Assembly (NCBI GenBank): GCA_964532005.1
Contig: CAZHER010000002.1
Location: forward strand, 8,813-72,812
Direction: 5' to 3'
DNA: 64,000 bases
From: an uncultured Candidatus Saccharibacteria bacterium
GTDB taxonomy: Bacteria; Patescibacteriota; Doudnabacteria; UBA920
Positions 1-27,341 of the stretch are shown one piece after another. Every line of letters starts with the position of its first letter. The stretch's first letter is position 1. Below the pieces are notes generated by a model, which worked only from the letters and a program-made list of their open reading frames with translations, did no database searches and was not told the DNA's origin. The position numbers and the translations under genes are program-made.

Positions 1-341
1 TATCAAATCTCACTAAGCGCTTGACTTGAACTTGTGAAAAAGGCTTTCCTTGAGGAGTCATCATAATCACCCGACCACTAGGATTCTTTTTTTTCCAAGC
101 AGTAATAGCCTTGTACAACACGTCAGACCTCAAAACCATTCCCACACCACCTCCGTACGGCCTGTCGTCTACTGTTCCTCTGCGATCTAATCCATAGTCA
201 CGTAAATTTATAGCATCAAATTTTAAAAGTTTGTTTTTTATGGCTCTTTGGACAATTCCAAAAGATGCGTAATCTTGAACGAATTCAGGAAACAATGTTA
301 AAACTGCTATGGTTTTGGTAACAATTCTTTTCTTGGTCATT
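1..341 (-). CDS. trmD: tRNA (guanine37-N1)-methyltransferase TrmD, N-terminal part; 3' end lies beyond the window start
   Basis: The reverse-strand ORF starts with ATG at 339-341. Its translation, MTKKRIVTKTIAVLTLFPEFVQ...LRDYGLDRRGTVDDRPYGGGVGMV...MMTPQGKPFSQ, matches TrmD N-terminal motifs. It is absent from the ORF track because it is truncated by the window edge. Confidence 0.8.
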
Positions 342-404
342 TACATATAAATATTAACATAAAACCCGCAACCAGAGCGGTGCGGGTTTTATTAGTAATG
401 GAAA

Positions 405-782
405 TTAGAGTTTAAAATCGTCGTCGTCCATTGATACTACGTCGTCCTGAGAACCAGCTGAATCAGCACCTTCTCCTGAGGAGTGATCTGATTGCTGGGA
501 GTGGTTGGAACGGCCGTTGTGTCCGCGATGAGAACCTTCAGGTTCATTGATCTTCAAGTTAACGCGTGCTTTGTGCTTGGCGCCAACAACGCGGAGCAAT
601 GTACGAACAGCTTTTGCAGTCTGACCCATACGACCAATTACTTGGCCCATATCAGCAGGGTTGATGAACAGAGTAATAAGAACTCCCATTTCATCTACAG
701 TGCGTTCTGTACGAACATCATCTGGATTATCCACTAAGGATTTGACAATGTACTCAACAAATTCTTGATCTTGTTCTGGCAT
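405..782 (-). CDS. KH-domain RNA-binding protein (YlqC/KhpA-like), normally encoded next to rpsP/trmD
   Basis: The 125-aa product carries a GxxG-type KH motif (VIGRMGQTAKAVRTL) and a Ser/His/Asp-rich tail. Its position beside trmD matches the conserved rpsP-KH-(rimM)-trmD cluster. Confidence 0.75.
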   Translation of the reverse strand: MPEQDQEFVEYIVKSLVDNPDDVRTERTVDEMGVLITLFINPADMGQVIGRMGQTAKAVRTLLRVVGAKHKARVNLKINEPEGSHRGHNGRSNHSQQSDHSSGEGADSAGSQDDVVSMDDDDFKL

Positions 783-853
783 TATCTTAGATTTCCGTTG
801 TTTTGATATATTACTTACTTTCGACCTTTCTGAAAATTTTCTTTCCTGATGAT

Positions 854-882
854 ATTATAAGTAGCTTATTGTAGTGTGTCAA
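854..882 (-). promoter_or_regulatory. consensus sigma70-like promoter on the minus strand (TTGACA-17-TATAAT) driving the KH/trmD genes
   Basis: The reverse complement of 854-882 reads ttgaca cactacaataagctact tataat. It sits immediately downstream of the stop of the 352-aa surface-protein gene. Confidence 0.5.
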
Positions 883-890
883 TCTGCGAA

Positions 891-1506
891 TTAATTCCCC
901 TGTCCTTGGACAGTAATGGTTTTAGGAAGTCTTGTCTGGGGGGTAGAAAGCTGTCCTTGGGGAACAGCAGAAGTATTGCCAATAGTGAGGGTAACAGAAG
1001 AACCGCAGGCAATCTGGGAATTGGAGAAAGTGTAGGTCAGATTAGTATATTCACTGGTAGCAGAAAGGTTTTGAATGGGACCAGAGAACCCTCCGGTGCA
1101 AGTGGCAGACACAGTATAGGTAGGACTGGTACCTTTGAGGGTGTCAGTGGTGGCTGGAGTAATGGTCAAGTCAAATCCTGGAGGTGGAGGTGGGGTTGGA
1201 TTGACCACCAGCTGTCCAATACAATCATGAGTTTGTCCTCCTCCTGTTCCAGTGAAGGTTATGGTATATGTGTTGGCAGGTGTACTCCCTGTGGTAGACA
1301 CTGCAGCTGTGGTGGTGGCGTCTGGGAATTGATTGTTGTTGGAAAAGTTGATGGAAGGACCGTTGGCTACGTTGGGAACCACTGAGGCAGAGAAGTTTAC
1401 TTGAGAATTAAAGCCGTTTACTCCGGTGGTGGATAGGGCGTAGGTGGTTGCTCCTCCTACCACGATGGATTGGGTGGATGGAGAGCAGGAGAGGGTGAAG
1501 TCGGGA
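891..1506. repeat. direct repeat copy 1 (~616 bp), identical to 5827-6442
   Basis: The minus-strand protein and the antisense plus-strand ORFs 876..1385 and 5842..6321 give identical translations across this region. Two identical reading frames imply nucleotide identity. Divergence begins at 1507 (c) versus 6443 (t). Confidence 0.8.
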
Positions 1507-1949
1507 CCATTGGATACTACTGTAATGTCAACATTTCCATATATTGTTTCGCATTCTCCGCCTGAGTCAAAAATAGCCTCTATTTGTGTTGTAAAAGTGT
1601 AAGGAAAAGATGTGCCAGGAAAAGAAGTGGCGTCATAGTTCTGAGTTGCATATTCAGTTACTGATCCACCATTAGAGCACCAGTTTGTTCCTTGGTATAC
1701 GCTATCAAAACTTACACCTGAAGAACTGCTAACCACGGCAGGTTTACAAGCCCCGGCAAAAGGCCCGCGCATCTCCACTGTAATAGCGCCAGTTTGCCCA
1801 GCTGTTACTTCATACGGCCCTCCACACACTTCTTGAGCTTGGGCTTCCATAGTCGGTTGAATATCGAGGGTGATATTTATGAAAGAGAAAACAAACGAAA
1901 ACACCAAAGCCACTATGGCTAACTTAGTAGGTTTTTTAATTTTTTGCAT
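891..1949 (-). CDS. secreted repeat-domain surface protein, 352 aa; C-terminal ~205 aa identical to the paralog at 5827-6897
   Basis: It has an N-terminal signal peptide (MQKIKKPTKLAIVALVFSFVFSF). The Thr/Ser/Gly-rich beta-type repeat domain (DFTLSCSPSTQSIVVGG...GTGGGQTHDC) also occurs three times in the giant neighbour. The protein ends PPPPPGFDL...GQGN. Confidence 0.6.
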   Translation of the reverse strand: MQKIKKPTKLAIVALVFSFVFSFINITLDIQPTMEAQAQEVCGGPYEVTAGQTGAITVEMRGPFAGACKPAVVSSSSGVSFDSVYQGTNWCSNGGSVTEYATQNYDATSFPGTSFPYTFTTQIEAIFDSGGECETIYGNVDITVVSNGPDFTLSCSPSTQSIVVGGATTYALSTTGVNGFNSQVNFSASVVPNVANGPSINFSNNNQFPDATTTAAVSTTGSTPANTYTITFTGTGGGQTHDCIGQLVVNPTPPPPPGFDLTITPATTDTLKGTSPTYTVSATCTGGFSGPIQNLSATSEYTNLTYTFSNSQIACGSSVTLTIGNTSAVPQGQLSTPQTRLPKTITVQGQGN

Positions 1950-1985
1950 ATTTATAGATATCTAACAATGTTCCTTATTTTGATA

Positions 1986-4900
1986 TTAAGGAGCGATTTC
2001 GTTACGATCAGGATTACCGCTGGTATCAGTAAACTGATATAAAGGAGTTGAAACCATCTTGTCAGCCAAGTTAGTAGAGTCAATTATGGCTCTGTTTTGG
2101 AAGCGATAGAATGAACTAGTAGTACCAGGCTTAGTAACTTTGGCTGTAAAAGTAATACTGCAAGTTCCGCCGGCAGAGACATCGCCAACTGTAAAGTCTA
2201 CACCACCGGAAACAAGAGAATGACTACCAGCGCTACATCCGGAATAACTAATCCCGCTGACATCAGAAAGGTTGGTCAAGGTATCCCTTACCACAACTCC
2301 GGTAACAGGAGAGTCCCCACTATTACATACATTGATCTTGAACGTTACTAGATCACCCACTTTGAAAGATTTGTTGCCATTCAAAGTTACAGGCTCATGC
2401 TCTCCACTGCACGCCTGCGAGCTGCTACTCATACCAACAGGACTAACTGCAATAATATCCTTGTCGGAAGTAGAAAGATTTGGTGTACAAGGCCTTACAT
2501 ATACAGGACCGCCAGATTTCTTAGCAGATTCTGAAGCTCCATTCATAGCTGTTACTGCATAATAATAATTTCCGGTCGAAGGGGTATCTGTATAGGTTCT
2601 TGGCGAAGTCGGTAATGGGTCTGTAGTGTTAATATGAGTGCCCCAACTCGAACCGTCAGTAGAACGATATATTCTATAACCGGTAGGTGCAGGCCCTGAA
2701 CTTGGTGCGCTCCAAGTTATTAAAGCTGCTTGGCAAGCGGAAACATCAATAGACATTGAAGCTGGAGGCTCAGGCGACCCTGTAACATTAACAGTTATAC
2801 TATCGCTGGCACTGCCACCCGGGCCACTACAATCTACGGTGTAAGTTGTTGTGGAACTAAGAGACCCTGTTGACTGTGAACCGGAAATTCCAGTCCACCC
2901 TGCTGGGCTTACTGTACAAGAATTCGCATTGGTAGAACCCCAGTCTATGGTCGCACTACTGCCTGAGCTTATTGTGATATCACTAGAACTTCCGTCCGCA
3001 GTAATCCATGCGGTAGGAGGAGTATTGCCATTGATAGTGAGTTCGACTCCACCGGGACAGCTATGAGTTTTTCCACCGCCGGTGCCACTAAAGACAATTG
3101 TGTACGTGCCTGGAGCAGTCGAGCCATTTGTAGAAACCAACGCGCTGGTAGTTGCCGGGGGTACTTGGTTGTTGTTTGTAAAACTGACTGAAGGGCCGTT
3201 AGCAATATCAGGATCAATTGACCCGACGCTGAACTGCACCTGACTGGAAAATCCATTTACCGGAGTTGTTCTTAAGCTGAATACTGCTGTATCACCAACG
3301 GCAATAGATTGAGTTGCTGGCGTACATTCAAGGTCAAAATCTGGCGTTCCTGGCGGAACTACATTTACTGTTACATTATCTGTTGCGTCACCGCCTGTAC
3401 AAGTTACAACATATTCTGTAGTTGACATAAGTGATTTCTCAGTATAAGTACCTGAAGTACCTGTTTGGTCAATTGGGGTTACAATACAGTCGGTTGTATT
3501 TTCAGACCACCAATCTATAACCACTTCTGATCCCTCATCAACAGTAATTGAGCCACCTTGACCATTGGCTGTAATATTGGCTGTTGCAGATGCTATCGGA
3601 TCTACTATTAACTCAACTGAACATTGCTGGGTTTTACCGCCGCCGGTGCCGCTAAAGACAATTGTGTACGTGCCGGTTTGTGTTGAAGCATTTGTTAGGA
3701 CTAAAGCTGTGGTGGTTGCCGGAGGCACTTGGTTGTTGTTGGTAAAGCTTATTGAGGGCGGGTTCCCTACATCTGGATCCATAGAATAAACACTAAATTG
3801 CACCTGGCTATTAAAGCCGTTCATGGCTGTTGTTGAAAGACTGTATGATGTACTGCCACCAACTGTAATTGTCCTTGATGCAGGAGTGCAAACTAAAGTA
3901 AAATCAGGATTTGGATTAACGTTTACAATCACCGTGTCATTATCACTGCCTCCAGGGCCGGTACAGGTCAAGGTGTATATATATTGTGTATTTGTGAGAC
4001 TGCTTTGATCCTCACCAGGAGTTGGATAGTTATTTAAAGCTTTACTACCGCTCCAGTCCCCTGATGCTGTGCAAGAAGTTGCATTAGTAGAAGTCCACGT
4101 TAAATTAGCTGTACCGTTGTAGGCAACAGTTGTGCTTGGTCTGTCACCGTTTGCATACAAAGTCACTATTGGAGCGTCAAAACCGTCAATATCTAAAGTT
4201 ACTTGGCACTGATGACTTTTGCCACCGCCTGTAGCGGTAAATGTTATTGTGTACAAAGCTGGCGTTGTACTTCCAGTTGTACTTATTATGGCTGTTGTAG
4301 TTGCCGGAGGTACTTGGTTATTTCCTGAAAAACTAATCGAAGGGCCATTTGCCCCATTGTCGGGCAAGACTGATGAACTCACAGTCACAGCGCTATTAAA
4401 CCCGCCGTAAGCTGAAGTTGAAATTGCAAAAGATGTTGAGTCACCAACCGTGATTGTTCTTGTAGCTGGAGTACAAGATATAGCAAAATCGTTCCCCACA
4501 GTAACCACTACACTGTCAGAGTCGCTGCCTCCTGGGCCAGAACAATCCATGGTGTACGTGGTTGTTGTGGTTAATGGTCCTGTTGTGTTCGGTCCTCCGG
4601 AAGTACCGCTCCAACTTACACTGGGTGCTGGACTTGAGGTAACGGTACAAGACGTTGCATTGACAGATGTCCAACTAATTAATGCTGAGCTGTTATAGTC
4701 AATGTTGCAACTGTCAGCATCATTACACTTAATGTCAGCATTTGGACCAACAATTACTTGAACACTGTCATTGGCAGTACCGCCCGGGCCGGTACAGCTA
4801 AGGCTGTAAGTTGTGTTCGCTGTTAAATTACCTGTTGTCTGGGAACCTGAAGTTCCTGTCCAGTTTGAAGGAGCAACCGTACATGATGTTGCGTCTTGTG

Positions 4901-5810
4901 AACTCCAGGCAATAGTAGCAGAAGAATCATACGGTATAGTACATGTGTCATTTAAACCATTGCATGTGATACTTGCCTGTGGAACATTTGGATTTACAGT
5001 TAGAGTTACTGTCTTAACTGTAGTTGTTGCGCCACCATATCCGGTACATTGAATACTGTAGGTACCAGATGTATTTATACCAGTACTTTGTGTGTATGTT
5101 GTACCTGGGGTACTGCTCTTTGTTCCATTCCAACTACTGTTAGTAGGGTTAGAAGTGGCTGTACAAGCAGTTCCGCTTTGAGTGGCAGTTGGAGTCCAAG
5201 CCAAAGTTGCAGTTTGACCACTTTGAATGGTTGCGCTGCTGCCGCCGTTTATTGTCAGACTAACGTCAGGAGTATCATAAATTGCCAGTTCTGTTGTAGC
5301 GCTGTCATACAAAGGACCGCCATCAACTGTAATGCTTAAAAAAATTGAAGAACTTTCATCTCCGTAGTGAGGTGGGTTATCAGTGCATACATTCTCAAAA
5401 ACGCTTCCACTAAAAATGGCGTTGTCGTAAATTGCTGGGGCTGTCCAAATATTGGACATTCCCGGGTTAGGATTAGGTGAATAAGTATGTTCTGAATGTG
5501 TATAAGCACCGGAGACGTAATATCTGCCCATAGTAAAAGATGGGGTACCGGAAGTGGTCATTGTATATCGCACTACCGCTCCATAAGGAATTTGAATTTC
5601 ATACCCTCCGTCCATAGGATCACTTCCTATGTCAGTATAGTTACCAATGACTTGTCCAGTTGAGGTATTATAAAGTTCTAAATCTAAATCAATTCCGCTA
5701 CATAAATCGTTTGCTTGTGCTGGTTTGTCACTATAGAAGTAGAGCGCTGATGTCATGGCCACCACAGCTAAGGCGAGGAAAATTTTTATTTTTTGCATTT
5801 TATTTTTCAT
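1986..5810 (-). CDS. giant secreted surface protein (1274 aa) with three A+B Ig-like repeat units, an FN3 domain and a C-terminal DUF11-like domain
   Basis: It has a signal peptide (MKNKMQKIKIFLALAVVAMTSA). Repeat A (DFxLxCTPAxxxIxVGxxxxxxLxTxxxNGFxSxVxFS...NNQVPPATT...GTYTIxFxGTGGGKxH) occurs three times. Repeat B (W.S.NATSCT...W.G.SG....L...TTY...C.GPGG..D.V.V) occurs about six times. An FN3-like segment reads PTGYRIYRS...YYYAVTAMN. The C-terminal segment VGDLVTFKINVCNSGDSPVTGVVVRDTL resembles a DUF11/conserved-repeat domain. Confidence 0.65.
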   Translation of the reverse strand: MKNKMQKIKIFLALAVVAMTSALYFYSDKPAQANDLCSGIDLDLELYNTSTGQVIGNYTDIGSDPMDGGYEIQIPYGAVVRYTMTTSGTPSFTMGRYYVSGAYTHSEHTYSPNPNPGMSNIWTAPAIYDNAIFSGSVFENVCTDNPPHYGDESSSIFLSITVDGGPLYDSATTELAIYDTPDVSLTINGGSSATIQSGQTATLAWTPTATQSGTACTATSNPTNSSWNGTKSSTPGTTYTQSTGINTSGTYSIQCTGYGGATTTVKTVTLTVNPNVPQASITCNGLNDTCTIPYDSSATIAWSSQDATSCTVAPSNWTGTSGSQTTGNLTANTTYSLSCTGPGGTANDSVQVIVGPNADIKCNDADSCNIDYNSSALISWTSVNATSCTVTSSPAPSVSWSGTSGGPNTTGPLTTTTTYTMDCSGPGGSDSDSVVVTVGNDFAISCTPATRTITVGDSTSFAISTSAYGGFNSAVTVSSSVLPDNGANGPSISFSGNNQVPPATTTAIISTTGSTTPALYTITFTATGGGKSHQCQVTLDIDGFDAPIVTLYANGDRPSTTVAYNGTANLTWTSTNATSCTASGDWSGSKALNNYPTPGEDQSSLTNTQYIYTLTCTGPGGSDNDTVIVNVNPNPDFTLVCTPASRTITVGGSTSYSLSTTAMNGFNSQVQFSVYSMDPDVGNPPSISFTNNNQVPPATTTALVLTNASTQTGTYTIVFSGTGGGKTQQCSVELIVDPIASATANITANGQGGSITVDEGSEVVIDWWSENTTDCIVTPIDQTGTSGTYTEKSLMSTTEYVVTCTGGDATDNVTVNVVPPGTPDFDLECTPATQSIAVGDTAVFSLRTTPVNGFSSQVQFSVGSIDPDIANGPSVSFTNNNQVPPATTSALVSTNGSTAPGTYTIVFSGTGGGKTHSCPGGVELTINGNTPPTAWITADGSSSDITISSGSSATIDWGSTNANSCTVSPAGWTGISGSQSTGSLSSTTTYTVDCSGPGGSASDSITVNVTGSPEPPASMSIDVSACQAALITWSAPSSGPAPTGYRIYRSTDGSSWGTHINTTDPLPTSPRTYTDTPSTGNYYYAVTAMNGASESAKKSGGPVYVRPCTPNLSTSDKDIIAVSPVGMSSSSQACSGEHEPVTLNGNKSFKVGDLVTFKINVCNSGDSPVTGVVVRDTLTNLSDVSGISYSGCSAGSHSLVSGGVDFTVGDVSAGGTCSITFTAKVTKPGTTSSFYRFQNRAIIDSTNLADKMVSTPLYQFTDTSGNPDRNEIAP

Positions 5811-5826
5811 CTAAAAAATAGATTAA

Positions 5827-6442
5827 TTAATTCCCCTGTCCTTGGACAGTAATGGTTTTAGGAAGTCTTGTCTGGGGGGTAGAAAGCTGTCCTTGGGGAA
5901 CAGCAGAAGTATTGCCAATAGTGAGGGTAACAGAAGAACCGCAGGCAATCTGGGAATTGGAGAAAGTGTAGGTCAGATTAGTATATTCACTGGTAGCAGA
6001 AAGGTTTTGAATGGGACCAGAGAACCCTCCGGTGCAAGTGGCAGACACAGTATAGGTAGGACTGGTACCTTTGAGGGTGTCAGTGGTGGCTGGAGTAATG
6101 GTCAAGTCAAATCCTGGAGGTGGAGGTGGGGTTGGATTGACCACCAGCTGTCCAATACAATCATGAGTTTGTCCTCCTCCTGTTCCAGTGAAGGTTATGG
6201 TATATGTGTTGGCAGGTGTACTCCCTGTGGTAGACACTGCAGCTGTGGTGGTGGCGTCTGGGAATTGATTGTTGTTGGAAAAGTTGATGGAAGGACCGTT
6301 GGCTACGTTGGGAACCACTGAGGCAGAGAAGTTTACTTGAGAATTAAAGCCGTTTACTCCGGTGGTGGATAGGGCGTAGGTGGTTGCTCCTCCTACCACG
6401 ATGGATTGGGTGGATGGAGAGCAGGAGAGGGTGAAGTCGGGA
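5827..6442. repeat. direct repeat copy 2 (~616 bp), identical to 891-1506
   Basis: See copy 1. Both copies begin with ttaattcccctgtccttggacag. Confidence 0.8.
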
Positions 6443-6897
6443 TCGTTACTTGCCACTATAACATAGACATCATTACAGGTTAATGTACCAGACCAATCTG
6501 CCTGGATATCTACATAAACTGGGAGCGCATATGTTCCCGGAGTTATATTTGGGTCTACATCAAATTCCCATACATTTGTACCAGAACCAAATGTACTTGT
6601 AGGGTTATATGTTGTTGTAATCCCGCTTGGATAACTGGTTGGCCCTACATAAAACCAAGCCTGTCCTCCCCCTTCATTTGGAATCGGAGGGACAAATTCC
6701 CAAGCCCATGAAACTCCATAATGCTGACCTGGATCTGCATTCATACTGTCATTACCGACAGCTCCTAAACCTACTATGCATTGATATCCACCATTATCAG
6801 CTTGAGCGTTGTTTATTCCAACTACTGGGAATACAGAAAACACCAAAGCCAATAAGGTTAGTTTTATAATATTTTGAACATACCCTTTGGGTCTCAT
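5827..6897 (-). CDS. secreted surface protein, 356 aa; unique N-terminal domain plus the shared C-terminal repeat domain
   Basis: It has a signal peptide (MRPKGYVQNIIKLTLLALVFSVFPVVGINNAQA). The C-terminal ~205 aa are identical to the 891..1949 product. A 16-bp gap separates it from the giant gene, implying co-transcription. Confidence 0.6.
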   Translation of the reverse strand: MRPKGYVQNIIKLTLLALVFSVFPVVGINNAQADNGGYQCIVGLGAVGNDSMNADPGQHYGVSWAWEFVPPIPNEGGGQAWFYVGPTSYPSGITTTYNPTSTFGSGTNVWEFDVDPNITPGTYALPVYVDIQADWSGTLTCNDVYVIVASNDPDFTLSCSPSTQSIVVGGATTYALSTTGVNGFNSQVNFSASVVPNVANGPSINFSNNNQFPDATTTAAVSTTGSTPANTYTITFTGTGGGQTHDCIGQLVVNPTPPPPPGFDLTITPATTDTLKGTSPTYTVSATCTGGFSGPIQNLSATSEYTNLTYTFSNSQIACGSSVTLTIGNTSAVPQGQLSTPQTRLPKTITVQGQGN

Positions 6898-6918: not shown

Positions 6919-7446
6919 TTACTTTTGTTGTGTAGATTTTTTTGCAGCGCCGACTCCAGAAGTATCTGTAAGTGTAATATCTACTGTTTTAACTTTGGTA
7001 ACACTATTCTCGTTCATATTGACTTGGAGTCTAGCATCGCCGTTGGTTCCTAACAAAGACTTAATAGTTGCTTCGTTCAGATTGCTTTCAATCTTCCAAC
7101 CGTTATTTTTCATATAATCTGAATAAATCTTGTAGTTAGCTTCTAAAGTCTTGGATGTTTCAAAAGTCCTGGTTGCTTGAAAACGGCCGTCTGCAGCAGT
7201 AGCATTGTAGTTCTGGGTAATCTTGGCCCCTTCTTCTATAGGAATATCTTTAGGGAACTTGTCTGGCACCTCTTTAGTAGGAATATTCTTCTTTTCGCTA
7301 ATTACAGGAGCTGGGGCGTTGTTTACTTGGCCGGATGGCTTTCTTTCAGTTTGAGAATATACCCAAATCAAAGCTGCAAATGCGAGAACGATTATACATA
7401 GCACTATGATGGCTGCGAAAGCCAAATGGTTTCGAATGTAGTTCAT
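6919..7446 (-). CDS. N-terminally membrane-anchored hypothetical protein (175 aa), first gene of the surface-protein cassette
   Basis: It has a single N-terminal TM segment (LAFAAIIVLCIIVLAFAALIWVY) followed by a hydrophilic domain. No motif was recognised. Confidence 0.45.
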   Translation of the reverse strand: MNYIRNHLAFAAIIVLCIIVLAFAALIWVYSQTERKPSGQVNNAPAPVISEKKNIPTKEVPDKFPKDIPIEEGAKITQNYNATAADGRFQATRTFETSKTLEANYKIYSDYMKNNGWKIESNLNEATIKSLLGTNGDARLQVNMNENSVTKVKTVDITLTDTSGVGAAKKSTQQK

Positions 7447-7503
7447 TTATTTTTATTAATTTTTATTAAGTTTTTATTTCGAAAAATAAATAATGTTATA
7501 TAT

Positions 7504-7532
7504 ATTGTAGCATATCTGGAGAAAAAAATCAA
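7504..7532 (-). promoter_or_regulatory. putative promoter (TTGATT-17-TGcTACAAT, extended -10) for the surface-protein cassette
   Basis: The reverse complement reads ttgatt tttttctccagatatgc tacaat. It lies between the rpsP terminator and the 175-aa gene start. Confidence 0.35.
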
Positions 7533-7543
7533 ATCTTTCCATT

Positions 7544-7575
7544 AAAAAAATCCGCTTTTCTATTAAAGCGGATTT
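7544..7575 (-). terminator. Rho-independent terminator downstream of rpsP
   Basis: On the minus strand the hairpin aaatccgcttt-aatag-aaagcggattt is followed by a U-run. Confidence 0.5.
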
Positions 7576-7590
7576 TCATTCCAAGAAAAA

Positions 7591-8076
7591 TTAAGCTTGT
7601 TCCGATTTAGCCTCTTCTTCTACAGCTACTTCTGGGCTGTTCTCTGGTTCCGAACTTGTTGTTTCTGTGGCTACTTCGGTCTCTACAGGTAGTGGCTCTG
7701 CTGTTTCGGCGACTTCTTCAGAAACTGACTCTACAGGAGCGGCTGCTGCGGCTTCGGCATCTGCCTTAGCTTTGGCTTCTTCTTCGGCTTTTTTTGCTCT
7801 TACTTTGGTAGGGATCAAAAAAGCGCGTTTTTTGTCTGCTTGTAAAAGATTTTTGCTAATCAGAAGGTTATTAAGTGTAGGAGATATAGAAACATGCTGT
7901 TCAACCCAATATTTCAAGCGGGCTTCATCTTTTACTGCAAATTCCTTTGTTCTAGGGTTATAATTTCCTAATATCTCAATAAATTTCTTATTAGCAGCTG
8001 CAGTACTTTCAGCCAATATTATGCGAAATTCGGGCTTATTCTTTTTTCCGGCGCGTTGTAAGCGAAGAGTTAACAT
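7591..8076 (-). CDS. rpsP: 30S ribosomal protein S16 with a ~75-aa Ala/Glu-rich C-terminal extension
   Basis: The product begins MLTLRLQRAGKKNKPEFRIILAESTAAANKKFIEILGNYNP, a typical S16 N-terminus. At 161 aa it is roughly twice the canonical length. Confidence 0.85.
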   Translation of the reverse strand: MLTLRLQRAGKKNKPEFRIILAESTAAANKKFIEILGNYNPRTKEFAVKDEARLKYWVEQHVSISPTLNNLLISKNLLQADKKRAFLIPTKVRAKKAEEEAKAKADAEAAAAAPVESVSEEVAETAEPLPVETEVATETTSSEPENSPEVAVEEEAKSEQA

Positions 8077-8147
8077 CTAATTGATTAAAAATGTATTAAT
8101 TAACTTTGATATTCTAGCACCAAACCATGCTTAGGTCAAGATTAAGC

Positions 8148-8759
8148 CTATTTATTGCGAAAATGCCTTATAATCCACCAAACAAGGAAAACAACTAGCA
8201 AAACCACTATCACGTAGTCTAGCCAATGGTATTGTTCTCTAACCGAAATCCAGGCTGTTCCCAATTTTGCTCCTAAATAAGCCAAAAAATAGCTCCACAA
8301 AAATGAACCAACAAAAGAATAAAAAAGGAATTTTCCAAAGTTTACTCTAGCAACTCCTGCTGGAACAGAAATAAATGTCCTAACCACTGGTAAAAGTCTG
8401 CCAATGAAGGAAGAAATTAAGCCAAACCGAGCGAAAAAACGGTCAGAAACTTCTAAATCATGATGAGAAACCAAAATATACTTGCCGTACTTTTGAATAA
8501 ATGGGCGACCGCCATATCTGCCAACTGCATATGTGACAGCAGAACCAATGGCACTACCAATTCCTCCTGCCAAGGCAACTCCAAACAATGTAAACCTTCC
8601 TTCGCTTACCAAAAACCCAGAAAAAGGCATTATAATCTCTGATGGTAAAGGAATAGCTGCAGACTCAATAGCCATTAGCAACGCAACCCCTGGATAGCCG
8701 GCAGAAGAAATTACATTAATAATGAAATTTGTCAGGGCCGAAATAATTTCAGAAATCAT
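8148..8759 (-). CDS. DedA/SNARE-associated (VTT-domain) membrane protein
   Basis: The motif GYPGVALLMAIESAAIPLPSEIIMPFSGFLV and the multi-TM profile fit the DedA family. Confidence 0.7.
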   Translation of the reverse strand: MISEIISALTNFIINVISSAGYPGVALLMAIESAAIPLPSEIIMPFSGFLVSEGRFTLFGVALAGGIGSAIGSAVTYAVGRYGGRPFIQKYGKYILVSHHDLEVSDRFFARFGLISSFIGRLLPVVRTFISVPAGVARVNFGKFLFYSFVGSFLWSYFLAYLGAKLGTAWISVREQYHWLDYVIVVLLVVFLVWWIIRHFRNK

Positions 8760-8768
8760 GCAGTAAAT

Positions 8769-11381
8769 TTATTTTGCAAAAGCAGTTGCCTGGTCAAATT
8801 TAATACTTAGCAACTTTGAAACTCCGTCATCGCCCATAGTCACACCGTACAGCATACTAGACTGTGCCATTGTTTCACGGTTGTGAGTAATGGTAATAAA
8901 TTGAGTTTGGTGGGCAAGCGTACCAAGAATTTGTCCGAAACGAATAGTGTTAGCTTCATCTAACGCAGCGTCAACTTCATCTAGCACCACAAAAGGGGAA
9001 GGGAAACACGACAACAAACTGCACAACAAAGCAATGGAGGTCAGTGCTCGTTCGCCGCCGGACAAAGCTTGAATAGTGGCAAGTTTCTTCCCTGGAGGGG
9101 TTGCTTTTATCTCTACACCTGCTACGTTCGTGCTCCCTTTTTCATATTTCGCTAAAAGTTTTTCTTCGGGACGCATTGTATTTTCTGTACTTTCGTCTTC
9201 TTTGTCTTCGTCTTGCTCAGCCTCTGGTTCTTCTTGTCCGCTACGAATTAAAGACAAATAAGCACGACCGCCATTGAACAAAGTCCGGAAGTATTGTTCA
9301 AATTGAGTTTGTACTTTGTGAAAAGCTTCATTGAAAGCTGTTTTAATATGCACATCCAATTCATCCATGACCGATTTCAGATCATCCATGGCTTTTTTCA
9401 AATCATCAACCTGCGAGGACAAGGAAGTATAGCGGTCTTCCGTTTCTCTATACTCCTGCATGGTCAATTCATCAATCCCGCCGATAAGTTCCAGCTGGTG
9501 TTTAAGTTTGTCGATTTTATTTTCCAAGTCAGGCTCTGCTTGTGATATCGGCTGAGTCTTAATTTCTCTAAGAATATCTTCTCCTAAAGAATGCAAAATT
9601 TCAGACTCTATTACTTCCAACGAAGATTCTTTTTTTGCTTTTTGAATTTGTATACCCCCTTCTCTATCGCGCATGACGCCAATGCGACCGCTGATTTCCC
9701 GGAACTTCCTGTCCGCTTCACTTATGGAAGTTTTAAACTCGGACTCAGCTTCATACAACCCCGCCAGCTCCTTTTGAAACGAAGAAATTTTTTCATTGAG
9801 CACGTCAATTTTTTGTTGGATGTTTTTTTCTTCACTCACTATTTGAGCTAAAAAGTCTTCTGATGAACCTGAGTCTGCCTGTTTTAACTCAAGATCTAAG
9901 CGCAGCTTTTCTTGCTCTAAATCTTTGAGCTGTTTGGTTAAAAAGTCTTCTGCCACCGCCAATTTTGACTGCTCTACCGCTATAGAGTTCAGTCCTGTGC
10001 TAAGGCTTTCTTTTTTTGCAGAGAGTTCTTGCAAAGTACTTTGCAAAAGTTTGGTCTGATCCGGCTGAATACTAATTTTTTTAGCGAGATCCCGAAATTC
10101 CGACCACTTCTGCCTAACAACTTGTCCTGCTTGTACAGCACTTGAAACATCGGGCATGTTCGGCAGTTCGGACCAAAAATTTTCTATCTGTCTGTCCACC
10201 GTATCAAACTCGTTTTGCAACTCCTCCCAACTTGTTCCAGAAGGCGCACTCAACTGAGAATAAATTTTTTCAATTGAGGAATTTATCTGTTCTATCTCAA
10301 TTTTGTGATTTTGTAGTTTTTCGGCCAAATCGGCATTGCTGACTTTTGCTTCCTTTAATTCCTTTTCCGTCTCTTCAATTTTTCTCCCGACCGTATGAGA
10401 TTCAACACGCAAGGTAGAACTGTCGCCAGCAGAACTTTTTTGGCTTTGCATCTTCCCGCGGACAAGACTAAGATTTTCCAGTAAGCCGTTTTTCTCATTT
10501 TGCAACAACTGCAACTCCGATTGACGGTTTTGGTATTTTCCAAGTTCTTGCAATCTTTTTTGCTCCAAACCTTCCATGTCTTGCATGTACCCTGACATTT
10601 CTTTTTCCATTGCCTCACGTTGGGACAAAACTCTGTTCAACTCTTGAGAAACCACAAGGGTTTCATTTTTTATTTGCCAAAAATTGTAACCCAAAAATTG
10701 CTTTTGATAACTCTTCAACTCAACTTGGATTGTTTCGCGTGCCTCCATTCTCTTAGCCTGCCTCCGCAAACTTTTTACCCGAGGCTCTAATTCAGAAATT
10801 AAATCTTCAGCGCGCATCAAATTTTGCGCCGTTTGTTCCATCCGCCTTAAAGTCCGTTCTCGTTTAATATAGTATGCCTTTACTCCGCTTGCTTCGTCTA
10901 TAAGATTTTTCACCTCTGCCGGTCCGGCCAAAATCATTTGGTCAATTGTTCCTTGACCTATCACGGTATATCTGGAAGTTCCAATATTACTTTTTAAAAC
11001 CAAGTCTACAATATCCAATAACCGGACTTTGTTGCCGTTTATTAAATATTCGCTTTCTCCGCTTCTGTTTATTCGACGGCCAATGCTGACTTCTGCTGAA
11101 TCAACAGGTATTCTTCTATCGCTGTTCTCGAAAGTGGCAAATACTTCTGCAAAATTCATTTTTGAACGCTTGTCGGAACCGGCAAAAATAACATCTTCAC
11201 TTTTTTTGCCGCGCATCAATTTGCTACTTTGTTCACCAACCACCCAACGTAAACAGTCGGCAATATTGCTTTTGCCGCTGCCGTTCGGACCTACTATCGA
11301 GGTCACTCCAGGTTGAAATTCTAGAATTGTATTTTTTGCAAACGATTTGAAACCTTGTATTTCCAATCTTTTTAGGTACAT
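8769..11381 (-). CDS. smc: chromosome segregation protein SMC, short 870-aa form
   Basis: The N-terminal Walker A reads LEIQGFKSFAKNTILEFQPGVTSIVGPNGSGKSNI. Long coiled-coil regions follow. The C-terminal signature and Walker B read LSGGERALTSIALLCSL...VVLDEVDAALDE. Confidence 0.85.
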   Translation of the reverse strand: MYLKRLEIQGFKSFAKNTILEFQPGVTSIVGPNGSGKSNIADCLRWVVGEQSSKLMRGKKSEDVIFAGSDKRSKMNFAEVFATFENSDRRIPVDSAEVSIGRRINRSGESEYLINGNKVRLLDIVDLVLKSNIGTSRYTVIGQGTIDQMILAGPAEVKNLIDEASGVKAYYIKRERTLRRMEQTAQNLMRAEDLISELEPRVKSLRRQAKRMEARETIQVELKSYQKQFLGYNFWQIKNETLVVSQELNRVLSQREAMEKEMSGYMQDMEGLEQKRLQELGKYQNRQSELQLLQNEKNGLLENLSLVRGKMQSQKSSAGDSSTLRVESHTVGRKIEETEKELKEAKVSNADLAEKLQNHKIEIEQINSSIEKIYSQLSAPSGTSWEELQNEFDTVDRQIENFWSELPNMPDVSSAVQAGQVVRQKWSEFRDLAKKISIQPDQTKLLQSTLQELSAKKESLSTGLNSIAVEQSKLAVAEDFLTKQLKDLEQEKLRLDLELKQADSGSSEDFLAQIVSEEKNIQQKIDVLNEKISSFQKELAGLYEAESEFKTSISEADRKFREISGRIGVMRDREGGIQIQKAKKESSLEVIESEILHSLGEDILREIKTQPISQAEPDLENKIDKLKHQLELIGGIDELTMQEYRETEDRYTSLSSQVDDLKKAMDDLKSVMDELDVHIKTAFNEAFHKVQTQFEQYFRTLFNGGRAYLSLIRSGQEEPEAEQDEDKEDESTENTMRPEEKLLAKYEKGSTNVAGVEIKATPPGKKLATIQALSGGERALTSIALLCSLLSCFPSPFVVLDEVDAALDEANTIRFGQILGTLAHQTQFITITHNRETMAQSSMLYGVTMGDDGVSKLLSIKFDQATAFAK

Positions 11382-12117: not shown

Positions 12118-12194
12118 TGGTGGGTGTATCCCGAATTGAACGGGAGACCTCATCGATGTCAACGATGCGCTCTAACCAACTGAGCTATACACCC
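12118..12194 (-). tRNA. tRNA-Val (anticodon GAC), CCA encoded
   Basis: The reverse complement GGGTGTATAGCTCAGTTGGTTAGAGCGCATCGTTGACATCGATGAGGTCTCCCGTTCAATTCGGGATACACCCACCA folds as a cloverleaf with anticodon loop TTGACAT. Confidence 0.85.
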
Positions 12195-12886
12195 TCATGG
12201 CAATCTTCAACAACTTTTTCACAAAATATCTTGCTCAAAAACGACAGCTTCCGCTGGACAGCGGTGTTTCCGTATCGGACAACGCACACTCCTTTGTAGT
12301 CCGGATGCGACTGGGAGTTTATTGTTCTTTTGGCAACACTGACTTTTGTGAAACTTTGTATTGGCAAACCCAGCTCAGTAGACCAAAAGCCCACTATCGA
12401 GACTGGGTCTTGATCAGATCTTATGTGCAATTCACACTTAAAATCATTTTTTTCTACTTGATAATTTACCGATAAAGCTTGAATAAAAAATTTAAGCACT
12501 ATCGGATTAGAATTACCAAGCGCCAAGGTGGGAGCTGCTTTATATCCCTCTCCTAAATATAACATGGCTAACGCCAAATCCACTACTGGTTTTGCCTGCC
12601 AGTTTATAAAGTTTAAACTATTTTCTGCTTCAAATCTAGCTTTCTCAACCCTTTTTTTCTTCTGGGTGTTGTGCCAATTCATAGCCAATTTTCTAGCACC
12701 TGCCAAACTAGCCAATTTCCCTTTTCGCAATGAATCCTTCTGACTCTCAGTCAACTCTATATTTTTAAACCACCCGCTTAAAGTCGACCTTGGAATACCA
12801 AGACTTGATTCTATTTTTCTTATAGATAAGCCTAATTTTCGCAAATTGACAGCTTTTTGCTTTGATTCGTACCATTGAGACTTCAT
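12185..12886 (-). CDS. HTH-domain protein with a possible degenerate LAGLIDADG-like motif (233 aa); its 3' end overlaps the tRNA-Val 5' end by 10 nt
   Basis: The N-terminal HTH reads LRKLGLSIRKIESSLGIPRSTLSGWF. The central segment LALAMLYLGEGYKAAP resembles a LAGLIDADG-type motif. The stop codon TAG lies inside the tRNA acceptor-stem sequence. Confidence 0.45.
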   Translation of the reverse strand: MKSQWYESKQKAVNLRKLGLSIRKIESSLGIPRSTLSGWFKNIELTESQKDSLRKGKLASLAGARKLAMNWHNTQKKKRVEKARFEAENSLNFINWQAKPVVDLALAMLYLGEGYKAAPTLALGNSNPIVLKFFIQALSVNYQVEKNDFKCELHIRSDQDPVSIVGFWSTELGLPIQSFTKVSVAKRTINSQSHPDYKGVCVVRYGNTAVQRKLSFLSKIFCEKVVEDCHEGV

Positions 12887-12928: not shown

Positions 12929-13810
12929 TTATTTTATAGGATTGGCAACCAAAGCCGGATTGAAAGATTTTTTATTTTTTGCTGACTTCTCAAAAGAGCG
13001 GGGTCTCAAATTGGCTATGTAAAACAAAAATAAGCTGAGGTTAAAAAATGAATTCAAAAATCCAAACCATAAAATTACAATTGGCTTAACATGTATTAAA
13101 AATACTAGTCCTAAACTCGCACCAAACGCATACATAGTTGCGAGTACCAAGCAAAAAATTAACAACCGTACCAATTTTGCCTTAATAAACTGCCAGGCTA
13201 CAGCACAAGCATCGTTGATGCCCTTTTGGTATATGACAATATTAGCGACAGTAAAAAAATTAAACACTGAAAAAATAAATAAAAACAATACGAGCAGAAC
13301 CATCCCTATACCGGCCATATATTCCATCGGGGCAAAAAACATTTGCCAGATCCACGGGCTTGCGAATACCAATACGGTTATGATCTGTGCTGCTGCAGTA
13401 AACAAACTGACAATTAACACAGGAAGTATAAACGTTTTCGATTGGAACAAAATTTTGCCTTGACGATCGATCCAAGATAAATCTTCGGGAGTTTCACCGA
13501 GCCGCTTTAAGTTCAATAAATCTGCAACAGTGAGCATAAAGAAAATTTTAACCCAATTTGCTAAAACCCACACCGATATTATACCCAACAAAAAAATGAA
13601 GATAATTGAAAACATCTGTGCGGGGTCGTTGCGGCTAGGAGACAGTAAATAAACCAACAAGTTTTCCAGTTGGATTTGTAGTCCGATTTTTTTCAAATAC
13701 CAAAAATTCATATTGAAACCTGCTGATAATAACAAACCAAAAAACCACAGCAGAGGAGTGGCTGCGGTCACTCGCAAAGCTGTGGTTATTAGTTTCAGAT
13801 GATTCAACAC
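12929..13810 (-). CDS. polytopic membrane protein, hypothetical
   Basis: It has about 8 predicted TM segments and no recognisable catalytic motif. Confidence 0.4.
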   Translation of the reverse strand: MLNHLKLITTALRVTAATPLLWFFGLLLSAGFNMNFWYLKKIGLQIQLENLLVYLLSPSRNDPAQMFSIIFIFLLGIISVWVLANWVKIFFMLTVADLLNLKRLGETPEDLSWIDRQGKILFQSKTFILPVLIVSLFTAAAQIITVLVFASPWIWQMFFAPMEYMAGIGMVLLVLFLFIFSVFNFFTVANIVIYQKGINDACAVAWQFIKAKLVRLLIFCLVLATMYAFGASLGLVFLIHVKPIVILWFGFLNSFFNLSLFLFYIANLRPRSFEKSAKNKKSFNPALVANPIK

Positions 13811-16312: not shown

Positions 16313-16315
16313 AAA

Positions 16316-16774: not shown

Positions 16775-16859
16775 TTTATAATCCTAGACTTTCAAGAATT
16801 TCAAAACTATAAAAACCTAGGACTAGCCCGCACTTTTTAAGGTGCGGGCGGAAATTTTG

Positions 16860-17270: not shown

Positions 17271-17369
17271 CCCCTTCCTTGATTACACAAACCTTAGGCT
17301 AACAGGGCTTGTGAAAGATAGCTATTTAATAAAATTGCTAATTTAACGATACCATACTTTGGCAAATTC

Positions 17370-17822: not shown

Positions 17823-17824
17823 GA

Positions 17825-26276: not shown

Positions 26277-27341
26277 TTATTCTTCATCCTCTTCCAACTT
26301 ATTTGGCAGATGCTGTCCGCTCTTAAGCTTGTTGCGCAGCGCAGTATCTACTTTTTTCATTACTTCGGGATTTTCGCGCAAAAAAGCTTTTGCTGTTTCG
26401 CGTCCTACACCAAACTTAATATCTTCAAACGAATATGAGTTACCGTTTTTTTCAACAACACCCAAAGCCAATCCGGTATCTAAAATGTCGCCGGCTGCGG
26501 AAATTCCTTCGTTATACATGATATCAAACTCGGCAACTTTGAATGGGGCGGCAACCTTGTTTTTTACTATTTTTGCTTTTGTTCGGTTACCGATAATTTT
26601 ATCGCCTTCTTTAATTTGGGCTGATCGCCTTACTTCAACACGTACAGAAGCATAAAACTTTAAAGCATTGCCCCCGGTAGTTGTTTCTGGGTTGCCAAAC
26701 ATAACACCAATCTTCATTCGGATCTGGTTAATGAATATTACAGTGGTGTTGCTCTTGGAAATAATGCCGGTAAGTTTTCGAAGGGCTTGGCTCATTAGGC
26801 GGGCGTGCAAACCCATATGAGAAGCTCCCATTTCCCCTTCTATTTCAGCTCTTGGAGTAAGGGCTGCTACAGAGTCAATAACAATAAGGTCTAGAGCATT
26901 GCTGCGGACCAAAGTTTCGGCAATATCTAACGCTTGCTCACCGCTATCAGGTTGGGAAATCAACAAATCTTCCAACTTCACTCCGATCTTCCTTGCATAA
27001 TCTGGATCCAACGCATGCTCCGCATCTATAAAAGCTGCTAAACCACCCCGCTTTTGAGCTTCGGCTATCATATGTAGGGTCAGCGTGGTTTTACCAGAGC
27101 TTTCAGGTCCATAAATTTCGATAATTCTGCCTTTAGGAATCCCGCCGACACCCAAAGCCAAGTCTAAACTGATGCTCCCTGTTGGAATTGCCTCAACATT
27201 CATGGTGCCCTGGTCTGAAATTTTCATTATGCTTCCATCACCGAACTTGTCTCGAATTTGATCCATTGCATTTTCTACCGCGCCCCACTTGCCACTGGAT
27301 GGTACTGCTGATTTTATTTTCGTGGTTTTTGATTTAGCCAT
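26277..27341 (-). CDS. recA: recombinase RecA
   Basis: It carries [20 protein letters not shown] and the canonical RecA core. Confidence 0.95.

What the first reader, a model, noticed from the sequence alone, without database searches (positions are those of the whole stretch)
891..6442. ~616-bp perfect direct repeat flanking the giant surface-protein gene
Two genes (891-1949 and 5827-6897) share a nucleotide-identical 3' region. The protein translations and the antisense ORF translations are both identical over ~616 bp, so two reading frames agree. The result is the same C-terminal ~205-aa domain on different N-terminal domains. Perfect identity over 616 bp argues for recent duplication or ongoing gene conversion. 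Because the copies are direct repeats bracketing the 1274-aa gene, homologous recombination between them would excise ~4.9 kb. That event would leave a single chimeric gene, which would be a switch changing the displayed surface repertoire.
Basis: seen in the sequence. Interest (0 to 1): 0.65.

Follow-up and report, generated by a model that had tools for sequence, protein, structure and literature searches.

The report
Identical tail on two surface-protein genes
Two neighbouring secreted-protein genes of an uncultivated Saccharibacteria (TM7) bacterium carry a letter-for-letter identical 618-base 3' half, most likely because the cell's own recombination machinery keeps copying one tail onto the other; it is a real and tidy case of a well-known process, not a new kind of switch.

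Summary
Window 889-1506 and 5825-6442 are an exact 618-bp direct repeat, 4936 bp apart, and the flanks are unrelated. The repeat is the last 204 codons, the stop codon and 2 more nt of two minus-strand genes, A (356 aa) and C (352 aa). They bracket gene B (1274 aa). All three encode signal-peptide proteins built from Ig-like beta-sandwich domains. Together with a small membrane-anchored protein they form a separate operon inserted between rpsP and the KH/trmD/rplS genes of a Candidatus Saccharibacteria chromosome.

Three assemblies and a k=31 graph of the reads agree that the repeat is present twice, but short-read assembly cannot prove zero mismatches.

Comparative data favour gene conversion (concerted evolution). 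The orthologous tail of a sister species differs at 113 of 615 nt, against 0 between the two copies here. Distant orthologues of the gene-C head carry a different tail subtype. In two related species, contigs break exactly at the head/tail junction. RecA is encoded in the window.

The "switch" reading is only partly supported. Recombination between the copies would delete B and C and leave gene A unchanged, not chimeric. One contig from the sister species shows exactly that arrangement. Coexistence of both forms and reversibility are untested.

The parts
889..1506 (-). Repeat copy 1: the shared tail of gene C (codons 149-352, stop, +2 nt). It encodes two Ig-like domains joined by a PPPPPP linker.
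   Evidence: Exact identity to 5825-6442. The AlphaFold model has pLDDT >90 over the tail.
5825..6442 (-). Repeat copy 2: the shared tail of gene A (codons 153-356, stop, +2 nt).
891..1949 (-). Gene C, 352 aa: signal peptide (AQA site), a ~108-aa 'C-type' head, then the shared tail.
   Evidence: Head orthologues are P0004, P0005, P0008 and those in L085 and L086. No Pfam family.
1986..5810 (-). Gene B, 1274 aa giant secreted protein. It has an N-terminal head, many Ig-like modules including three diverged copies of tail module 1 (about 3015-3344, 3597-3908 and 4047-4490), and a C-terminal DUF11/CLIPPER domain.
   Evidence: PF01345, E 7.5e-10, 39.6 bits against a cut-off of 24.6; family D2.
5827..6897 (-). 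Gene A, 356 aa: signal peptide, 'A-type' head, then the shared tail.
   Evidence: The orthologue P0003 has a head 81% and a tail 88% identical.
6919..7446 (-). First gene of the operon: a 175-aa protein with an N-terminal transmembrane helix and an alpha/beta domain (Pfam PF27226 'AF_1845', weak). It is found next to head+tail genes in the relatives whose loci were examined.
7544..7576 (-). Terminator hairpin after rpsP: a 13-bp stem followed by a U run.
   Evidence: -15.6 kcal/mol, z -4.66.
7504..7532 (-). Promoter-like site (TTGATT-17-TACAAT with an upstream TG) ahead of the four-gene operon.
   Evidence: This is a consensus match only.
854..882 (-). Perfect sigma-70 consensus (TTGACA-17-TATAAT), beginning 7 nt past the end of the repeat and serving the KH/trmD genes. 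TTGACA and TATAAT occur in the aligned intergenic region of L042 as well.
   Evidence: 12 of 12.
405..782 (-). KH-domain protein (KhpA-like): the conserved downstream flank of the island.
   Evidence: PF13083, E 1.4e-21.
7591..8076 (-). rpsP (ribosomal protein S16): the conserved upstream flank of the island.
26277..27341 (-). recA: the enzyme needed for the proposed conversion or deletion.
   Evidence: PF00154, E 4.4e-138.

Best explanation
The repeat is the common 'tail' of two paralogous secreted proteins of a Candidatus Saccharibacteria bacterium. The tail is two Ig-like beta-sandwich domains joined by a proline linker. Each protein is a signal peptide, a fast-evolving ~110-aa head and this tail. 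I infer that the heads are the specific binding parts and that the tail is a common stalk or docking part. The two tails are identical because the chromosome's own homologous-recombination system (RecA) copies one onto the other. This is non-reciprocal gene conversion, repeated over evolutionary time, in other words concerted evolution. Homogenisation runs exactly as far as homology runs, from the first codon of the tail to just past the stop codon, which explains the sharp edges. A by-product is that 618 bp of perfect direct repeat now bracket gene B and the head of gene C. The same machinery can therefore delete that 4.9-kb segment, leaving gene A intact next to the KH promoter. What is shown: the exact repeat, its presence twice in the read graph, the domain structure, recA, divergence of orthologues against identity of paralogues, and the head/tail incongruence. 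What is inferred: conversion as the mechanism, its recurrence, the roles of head and tail, and the tendency to delete.
For: (1) The copies show 0/618 differences. The orthologous tail of the sister species (SMC protein 87.5% identical) differs at 113/615 nt, with dS 0.80 over ~162 synonymous sites and omega 0.09. By my own estimate the copies were last homogenised within roughly the last 2% of that divergence. (2) Head and tail disagree. The gene-C head groups with P0004, P0008 and P0005 (57, 56 and 38% identical), whose tails form a separate clade with their own insertion and are 33-54% identical. The gene-C tail sits with gene A and its orthologue P0003. (3) A C-type head is already joined to this tail subtype in a species with SMC 76% identical (L085, and L086 from another sample). 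The join therefore appears older than that split, yet the window's two copies are identical, so a later homogenisation is required. (4) Contigs break exactly at the head/tail junction in relatives. In GCA_964597185.1, contig 8 ends 55 nt into the tail and overlaps by exactly 55 nt contig 12, which starts at the first tail codon. In the sister species, two samples' contigs both end 28 nt into the tail. This is the signature of a collapsed repeat with the same boundary. (5) recA is in the window. Saccharibacteria integrate DNA by homologous recombination (PMC10633639). (6) The window shows no integrase, transposase or reverse transcriptase and is otherwise housekeeping genes. No relatives were found in viral contigs.
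Against: Perfect identity is partly imposed by short-read assembly. No reads were available, so neither the true number of mismatches nor any conversion or deletion event was observed. A conversion between tails that had already diverged would not be expected to end exactly at the domain start and the stop codon, so the first event may have been a duplication or chimeric join rather than a conversion. Other resolved Saccharibacteria loci (L003, L004, L005, L013-L015) show no near-identical tails, so homogenisation is not general in the family. The contig breaks in relatives are indirect evidence. A co-occurring strain sharing 31-55-nt words could also cause them.
Confidence: 0.58

Rival explanations
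1. A single recent event with no ongoing conversion. The tail of gene A was duplicated once onto the gene-C head, for example by segmental duplication or illegitimate recombination with an in-frame domain join kept by selection. The copies have simply not had time to diverge.
For: The boundaries coincide with the domain start and the stop codon +2 nt. That fits a selected domain-level join better than a conversion tract between diverged sequences. Other resolved loci have no identical tails.
Against: A C-type head already carries this tail subtype in a species with SMC only 76% identical, so the join looks old while the identity is young. Assembly breaks fall at the same junction in two other species.
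Confidence: 0.2
2. An active recombinational switch. Cells frequently delete, and perhaps re-acquire, the B + C-head segment through the repeat, so that the population displays alternative surface repertoires.
For: A 618-bp perfect direct repeat and recA are both present. In the sister species, one sample's contig reads membrane protein, gene A, tail, KH with no branch (L042). In two other samples, contigs that are 100% identical to it stop 28 nt into the tail. That is compatible with both states existing in one species. Adhesins are essential for the epibiotic growth of Saccharibacteria (PMC10633639).
Against: The product is not a new chimera; it is only the loss of B and C. No reverse path is evident. 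There is no site-specific recombinase and no regulatory feature. L042 is a 1.7-kb low-coverage k=31 contig, and an unbranched path through a collapsed repeat could arise if the other junction k-mers fell below the abundance threshold. Both states were never seen within one sample.
Confidence: 0.1
3. The identity, or the second copy, is produced by the assembler. The true gene C has a diverged or different 3' end, and the gene-A tail was pasted in.
For: All the assemblies appear to be short-read. The SPAdes assembly left the middle ~400 nt of the second copy unassembled. Bubble popping would erase a few SNPs.
Against: Contigs read from the gene-C head 120 nt into the tail, and from 99 nt (SPAdes) or 30 nt (Logan k=31) inside the tail out into the KH flank, all at 100% identity. 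A diverged interior would have provided unique k-mers and let the assembler continue instead of stopping. In another species a C-type head is read in frame into the same type of tail.
Confidence: 0.07
4. The 4.9-kb segment is foreign DNA that entered by a single crossover within the tail (Campbell-type or homology-facilitated integration of a C-head, tail and gene-B segment). Such an entry automatically creates flanking direct repeats.
For: In the more distant relatives L003, L005 and L006 the C-type gene is followed directly by a large protein gene, which is the order a circular C-tail-B molecule would have. Saccharibacteria are naturally competent (PMC10633639). L042 looks like an empty site.
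Against: The two resulting copies would be identical only if the incoming tail was already identical to the resident one. There are no mobile-element genes and no viral relatives. GC content is 0.43-0.45 over window 1-6000, against about 0.40 further along the window, which is only a mild difference.
Confidence: 0.05

Closest known systems
Helicobacter pylori bab paralogues (babA/babB/babC): intragenomic gene conversion between adhesin genes with shared ends
   Same: These are paralogous surface or adhesin genes in one genome with highly homologous terminal segments and divergent ligand-binding parts. Homologous recombination between loci creates chimeras and reshuffles the repertoire (PMC4552749).
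   Different: The bab genes lie at separate chromosomal loci and encode outer-membrane beta-barrel proteins of a diderm. Conversion events there have been observed experimentally and in isolates, and are coupled to CT-repeat phase variation. Here the genes are tandem, in one operon, in a Saccharibacteria genome; the proteins are chains of Ig-like domains; and no event has been observed. This is a resemblance in mechanism, not family membership.
Concerted evolution of duplicated bacterial genes (for example tufA/tufB of Salmonella and E. coli; from my own knowledge)
   Same: Paralogues within a genome are more alike than orthologues between species. The process is RecA-dependent, and the edges are sharp where homology ends.
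   Different: There the whole gene is homogenised and the copies are functionally redundant. Here only the tail is homogenised, and the heads are unrelated in sequence.
RecA-dependent deletion between long direct repeats (general bacterial genetics; from my own knowledge)
   Same: There are two copies in the same orientation, far longer than the ~25-50 bp minimum for efficient RecA pairing, bracketing a dispensable-looking segment.
   Different: No deletion event was observed in this population. The only hint is the arrangement in a sister species (L042).
Chains of Ig-like domains in bacterial surface proteins (S-layer protein SbsC; DUF11/CLIPPER isopeptide domains)
   Same: The AlphaFold model of gene C is three beta-sandwich domains. 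The best Foldseek PDB matches are SbsC domains (E ~1e-7), followed by titin and adhesion-molecule Ig chains. Gene B ends in a DUF11/CLIPPER domain, which was surveyed as an intramolecular isopeptide-bond domain (PMC12617251).
   Different: TM-scores are low (0.2-0.3) and sequence identity is 10-15%, so this is a generic fold resemblance. Genes A and C match no Pfam or NCBIfam family above cut-off. No anchoring motif was recognised in the sequences by eye.

Membership tests
Concerted evolution / gene conversion between paralogues | A segment of near-identity between paralogues, bounded by unrelated sequence | tested here: met
   618/618 identical, with flanks at 24-36% identity.
Concerted evolution / gene conversion between paralogues | Paralogous copies within a genome are more alike than orthologues between species | tested here: met
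   0 differences between the copies, against 113/615 to the sister-species orthologue. The tail tree puts A and C together and P0003 next to them.
Concerted evolution / gene conversion between paralogues | The same pattern recurs independently in related genomes | tested here: inconclusive
   Contig breaks fall exactly at the tail start in GCA_964597185.1 (55-nt overlap) and in two samples of the sister species. The second copies could not be retrieved. Other resolved loci lack identical tails.
Concerted evolution / gene conversion between paralogues | Homologous-recombination machinery is present | tested here: met
   recA lies at 26277-27341. Homologous integration has been shown in cultured Saccharibacteria (PMC10633639).
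Recombinational on/off or repertoire switch (phase variation by deletion or excision) | Both arrangements coexist in one clonal population | not testable with these tools
   This needs reads longer than 618 nt or read pairs, because the deletion creates no new short junction. The only hint is cross-sample evidence in a sister species.
Recombinational on/off or repertoire switch (phase variation by deletion or excision) | A reversible mechanism or a dedicated recombinase | tested here: not met
   No invertase, integrase or transposase was found among the window ORFs scanned against Pfam. The repeats are direct, so the event would be a deletion.
Diversity-generating retroelement (template/variable repeat pair) | Adenine-specific mismatches between the repeats, and a nearby reverse transcriptase | tested here: not met
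   There are no mismatches, and no reverse transcriptase was found in the window.
Mobile element bounded by duplicated attachment sites | Integrase or transposase genes, or cargo related to phage or plasmid sequences | tested here: not met
   The gene content is housekeeping. No relatives were found in viral contigs. The 'repeat' is a 204-codon coding domain.
DUF11 / CLIPPER domain proteins (gene B only) | A match to PF01345 above the gathering score | tested here: met
   39.6 bits against a cut-off of 24.6, residues 1146-1250. It is precomputed as CLIPPER. The isopeptide bond itself was not tested.
Any curated protein family for genes A and C | A match above cut-off in Pfam or NCBIfam | tested here: not met
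   There were no Pfam hits. The only hit was 16.6 bits against a cut-off of 37 to NF058595.

The most novel reading that the evidence does not exclude
In this Saccharibacteria lineage the conserved two-domain tail may double as a built-in recombination handle. Kept identical by conversion, it would let the rpsP-KH surface-protein island gain, lose and re-order head modules within a species. The sister species appears to have the short form in one sample and a branched form in two others, and the C-type head occupies the first position in another species. That would amount to a population-level system for varying the molecules an epibiont uses to contact its host.
Probability: 0.18. Interest if true: 0.65.

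Novelty: new member of a known kind. Interest (0 to 1): 0.42.

Why it matters
Saccharibacteria live attached to host bacteria, and in the one genetically tractable species adhesins are essential for that life (PMC10633639). Little is known about how their surface repertoire evolves. This locus shows a small, previously unnamed family of head-plus-tail secreted proteins in a hypervariable island between rpsP and the KH/trmD genes. It gives sequence-level evidence that homologous recombination, as conversion and probably as deletion, shapes the island. That makes a concrete, testable prediction for long-read metagenomes or cultured strains. It is not a new principle: gene conversion among paralogous surface-protein genes is a textbook process.

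Tried and rejected
(1) I looked up the bare 204-aa tail as a separate Logan gene product, to test whether the whole repeat is one unbranched unitig. It is not on record. (2) A protein search with the L009 tail, meant to find the second tail-bearing gene of that genome, failed because that genome's proteins are mostly absent from the collection. (3) The P0051 look-up returned nothing on record. (4) An exact-pattern scan and a protein-pattern scan of JGI metagenomes gave no match and only distant relatives (40% identity or less), so no further close loci were found. It was repeated with the tail alignment. (6) A self-comparison of 13 related loci found no other near-identical tails. The best was 82% identity within a giant gene. 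(7) The Foldseek afdb50 library was not available. (8) A Foldseek PDB search with the small membrane protein gave nothing at E <= 1e-3, only a weak resemblance to the Mog1/PsbP/DcrB-like fold, so its role stays open. (9) I rejected a DGR, a mobile element and a phage origin (see the membership tests). (10) I rejected the antisense ORFs as evidence, because they are identical only through identical DNA.
Full report
**1. The observation**

The window contains an exact direct repeat of 618 bp, at 889-1506 and 5825-6442, with the starts 4936 bp apart. Identity is 100% inside the repeat. It falls to the random level (24-36% per 50 nt) immediately outside. The only other similarity between the two genes is a 43-nt stretch at 74% in their signal-peptide regions (D4).

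Three minus-strand ORFs lie here:
- Gene A, 6897..5827, 356 aa.
- Gene B, 5810..1986, 1274 aa.
- Gene C, 1949..891, 352 aa.

In gene sense the repeat starts at the third base of the codon before Pro149 (C) / Pro153 (A). That is the first residue of the motif PDFTLSC. It ends 2 nt after the TAA stop. The "two frames agree" argument adds nothing, because identical DNA is identical in all frames.

**2. Is it real?**

- ENA scaffold MUNK22-1_scaffold_88 is 100% identical to the window and holds both copies.
- A separate SPAdes assembly (ERZ15185866) runs rpsP, gene A (head and tail), gene B and the gene-C head in one contig. It stops 120 nt into the second copy. The next contig starts 99 nt before the end of the repeat and continues into KH/trmD.
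- A Logan k=31 contig of run ERR4682891 starts exactly 30 nt (k-1) before the end of the repeat.

These breaks are what a genuine two-in, two-out repeat gives in a de Bruijn graph. Because gene B leads into the gene-C head, the only linear path that uses every edge is A-head, R, B, C-head, R, KH.

One thing cannot be settled without reads. A short-read assembler writes both copies from one collapsed consensus, so "zero mismatches" is as assembled, and a few SNPs could be hidden. The only coverage values available are similar: 1.53 and 1.63 for the two SPAdes contigs. They say nothing about the repeat itself.

**3. Setting**

The closest public loci are titled Candidatus Saccharibacteria. The rest of the window is ordinary chromosome. 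It holds SMC, RNase III, FtsH, five tandem T4SS-pilin genes, RecA, FtsK, IF-2, GyrA, S1, TyrRS and 12 tRNAs. No integrase, transposase or reverse transcriptase was found.

Genes A, B and C and an upstream 175-aa gene (6919-7446) lie between rpsP (7591-8076) and a KH-domain gene (405-782). trmD, a pseudouridine synthase gene and rplS follow the KH gene.
- rpsP is followed by a strong hairpin with a U run and a promoter-like site.
- The four genes are 16-36 nt apart.
- A 12/12 consensus promoter, TTGACA-17-TATAAT, begins 7 nt after the end of the repeat and faces KH.

The four genes therefore look like a self-contained operon inserted into the conserved rpsP-KH-trmD-rplS block.

**4. The proteins**

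A, B and C all start with a signal peptide that ends in an AQA-type site. The AlphaFold model of gene C (17-sequence alignment, mean pLDDT 85.8) is three consecutive beta-sandwich domains: the head (about residues 40-148) and two tail domains. Foldseek against the PDB returns only generic chains of Ig-like domains. S-layer protein SbsC is first, followed by titin and adhesion molecules, with TM-scores of 0.2-0.3.

A and C match no Pfam or NCBIfam family above cut-off. Gene B carries three diverged copies of tail module 1 (47-61% aa). It ends in a DUF11/CLIPPER domain, which has been surveyed as an intramolecular isopeptide-bond domain (PMC12617251).

An exhaustive HMMER search with the tail finds 2430 cluster representatives at E <= 1e-3. 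Most are giant proteins with up to 23 matched stretches. The ~350-aa head-plus-two-domain-tail architecture is much rarer, with 20 hits in the word-indexed search.

The 175-aa neighbour has an N-terminal transmembrane helix and a confidently modelled alpha/beta domain (pLDDT 89). It has no significant PDB match and only a weak Mog1/PsbP/DcrB-like resemblance. It is Pfam PF27226 ("AF_1845") in precomputed annotation. It accompanies head+tail genes in every related locus inspected.

**5. Comparative anatomy of the island**

The interval between rpsP and KH is hypervariable across Saccharibacteria. "AF" below denotes the small PF27226 membrane protein.

| Locus | Gene order |
|---|---|
| L003 | S16, AF, 747 aa, 757 aa, AF, AF, 372 aa (C-type head), 965 aa, KH |
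| L004 | S16, 281, 359, AF, six other genes, 1112 aa, KH |
| L005/L006 | S16, 472, AF, 365 (C-type head), 766, then a cut-off 107-aa ORF I did not identify |
| L010 | S16, AF, 363, then sequence running to the contig end (not characterised) |

Using SMC protein identity to the window as a yardstick, the relatives rank as follows:
- L042/L081 species: 87.5%.
- L009/L085 species (GCA_964597185.1): 76.4%.
- All others: 53-59%.

**6. Evidence on how the identity arose**

(a) Orthologue against paralogue. The gene-A orthologue in the sister species (P0003, L042) differs from the window tail at 113/615 nt (dS 0.80, omega 0.09). Its head has dS 1.3-1.7 and omega 0.07-0.11. Both parts are under purifying selection. 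With ~162 synonymous sites and no difference between the two window copies, their last common sequence is at most about 2% as old as the species split (my estimate).

(b) Head/tail incongruence. The gene-C head is 57, 56 and 38% identical to the heads of P0004, P0008 and P0005. Their tails are only 45, 33 and 54% identical to the gene-C tail, share their own insertion, and form a separate clade. The gene-C tail groups with gene A and P0003.

(c) The join is old but the identity is young. In GCA_964597185.1 the gene after the small membrane protein has a C-type head read in frame into this same tail subtype (L085). L086, from another sample, shows the same. If the A and C tails had diverged since then, they should differ by about as much as the window and L009 tails do (27% aa). 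They do not differ at all.

(d) Breaks at the same junction elsewhere.
- In GCA_964597185.1, contig 8 ends 55 nt into the tail and overlaps by exactly 55 nt contig 12. Contig 12 begins at the first tail codon and runs into KH/trmD. SPAdes leaves such k-length overlaps at unresolved repeats. Contig 8 is unbranched from the membrane-protein gene into the head, so the competing in-edge is not an allelic head at the same position.
- In the sister species, contigs from SRR32910794 (18.9 kb) and SRR32910799 both end 28 nt into the tail. They are 100% identical to L042 where they overlap.

Points (a) to (d) together are best explained by repeated RecA-mediated homogenisation of the tail (recA). They fit less well with one recent duplication.

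**7. The deletion idea**

Recombination between the copies would remove 4936 bp, comprising gene B and the gene-C head plus one tail copy. Because the copies are identical, the survivor is simply gene A followed by the KH promoter. It would not be a chimera.

L042 (SRR32910797) has exactly this structure. Its positions 1-1443 align to window 7284-5828, and positions 830-1670 align to window 1505-664 (alignment). Either that lineage never had the insert or it lost it. The other two samples of the same species show a branch at the tail start, so both states may exist in that species.

Two cautions apply:
- L042 is a short, low-coverage k=31 contig. A path A-head, R, KH could appear unbranched if the other junction k-mers were under-sampled. 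I judge this unlikely but cannot exclude it.
- A second strain could supply the branch.

The deletion makes no junction shorter than 618 nt that the intact locus lacks. Nothing suggests reversibility or control, so "switch" is not supported as stated.

**8. Comparison with known systems**

In mechanism, the nearest well-studied case is the H. pylori bab adhesin paralogues. There, intragenomic homologous recombination between genes with shared ends creates chimeras and changes the adhesin repertoire (PMC4552749). More generally, the pattern matches concerted evolution of duplicated bacterial genes and RecA-dependent deletion between direct repeats (both from my own knowledge). The resemblance concerns process, not protein family: these are Ig-domain chains in a Saccharibacteria genome, arranged in tandem in one operon.

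A DGR, a mobile element and a phage origin were each tested and not met. A text search found no paper linking Saccharibacteria surface genes with gene conversion.

**9. Verdict**

The repeat is real and is correctly described. The most likely cause is gene conversion (concerted evolution) of a shared tail between two paralogous secreted proteins (confidence about 0.6). A deletion-prone architecture is a by-product.

The finding is a new member of a known kind. It is of moderate interest because it concerns surface proteins of host-attached, largely uncultivated bacteria, and because related species hint at recurrent rearrangement. The decisive data, reads longer than the repeat, were not available.

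Noticed in passing
window 15887-18706 (minus strand): Five tandem genes (four of 136-152 aa and one of 293 aa) all match the type IV secretion system pilin family PF18895. The same array is present in relatives L081 and L085.
   Followed up: partly
window 58360-58436 (+): ARAGORN calls a tRNA-Ile with anticodon UAU. This is uncommon in bacteria, which usually read AUA with a modified CAU anticodon.
   Followed up: no
window 854-882 (minus strand); aligned intergenic region of L042: A perfect 12/12 sigma-70 consensus promoter (TTGACA-17-TATAAT) sits 7 nt after the end of the repeat and faces the KH/trmD genes. TTGACA and TATAAT occur in the aligned intergenic region of the sister species too, so KH keeps its own promoter whatever lies upstream.
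   Followed up: partly
window 7591-8076 (minus strand): The rpsP product is 161 aa, but the S16 Pfam domain covers only residues 8-60. There is a long C-terminal extension, also seen in relatives (130-164 aa).
   Followed up: no
window 6919-7446; L003 3862-4371, 9023-9505, 9510-9983; L005 9516-10001; L010 1018-1536: A small membrane-anchored protein (PF27226 'AF_1845') always accompanies the head+tail genes, sometimes in several copies. The model is confident (pLDDT 89) but has no significant PDB match and only a weak Mog1/PsbP/DcrB-like resemblance. It may be an assembly or anchoring partner.
   Followed up: partly
L085 10545-11063 with L009 1-612 (GCA_964597185.1 contigs 8 and 12): In this related species the C-type head occupies the first position after the small membrane protein, whereas in the window the A-type head is first and the C-type head last. 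The two contigs overlap by exactly 55 nt at the tail start. The second tail-bearing gene of that genome could not be retrieved.
   Followed up: partly
L042 (SRR32910797) versus L081 and L082 (SRR32910794, SRR32910799): The sequence is the same (100% identity over 856 nt), but one sample's contig reads through the tail into KH, while the contigs of two other samples stop at the same base, 28 nt into the tail. This may be a presence/absence polymorphism of a tail-flanked insert within one species.
   Followed up: partly
L003 5212-6695 versus 7489-8981: Two tandem 747/757-aa paralogues share their 3' 1.5 kb at 69.6% nt identity. The layout appears analogous (a shared 3' part on neighbouring paralogues), but the shared parts have diverged.
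   Followed up: no
window 12185-12886, 12929-13810, 30715-32706, 35474-35851: These ORFs of 125-663 aa have no Pfam match at the thresholds used (1e-3 or 1e-4). The first two are conserved in position in relatives (L002, L081, L085).
   Followed up: no
window gene A/C tail residues ~217-254: There is a weak, sub-threshold NCBIfam hit (16.6 bits against a cut-off of 37) to NF058595, 'lipo-invert putative C-terminal anchoring domain'. It is too weak to use but suggests an anchoring role for the tail.
   Followed up: no
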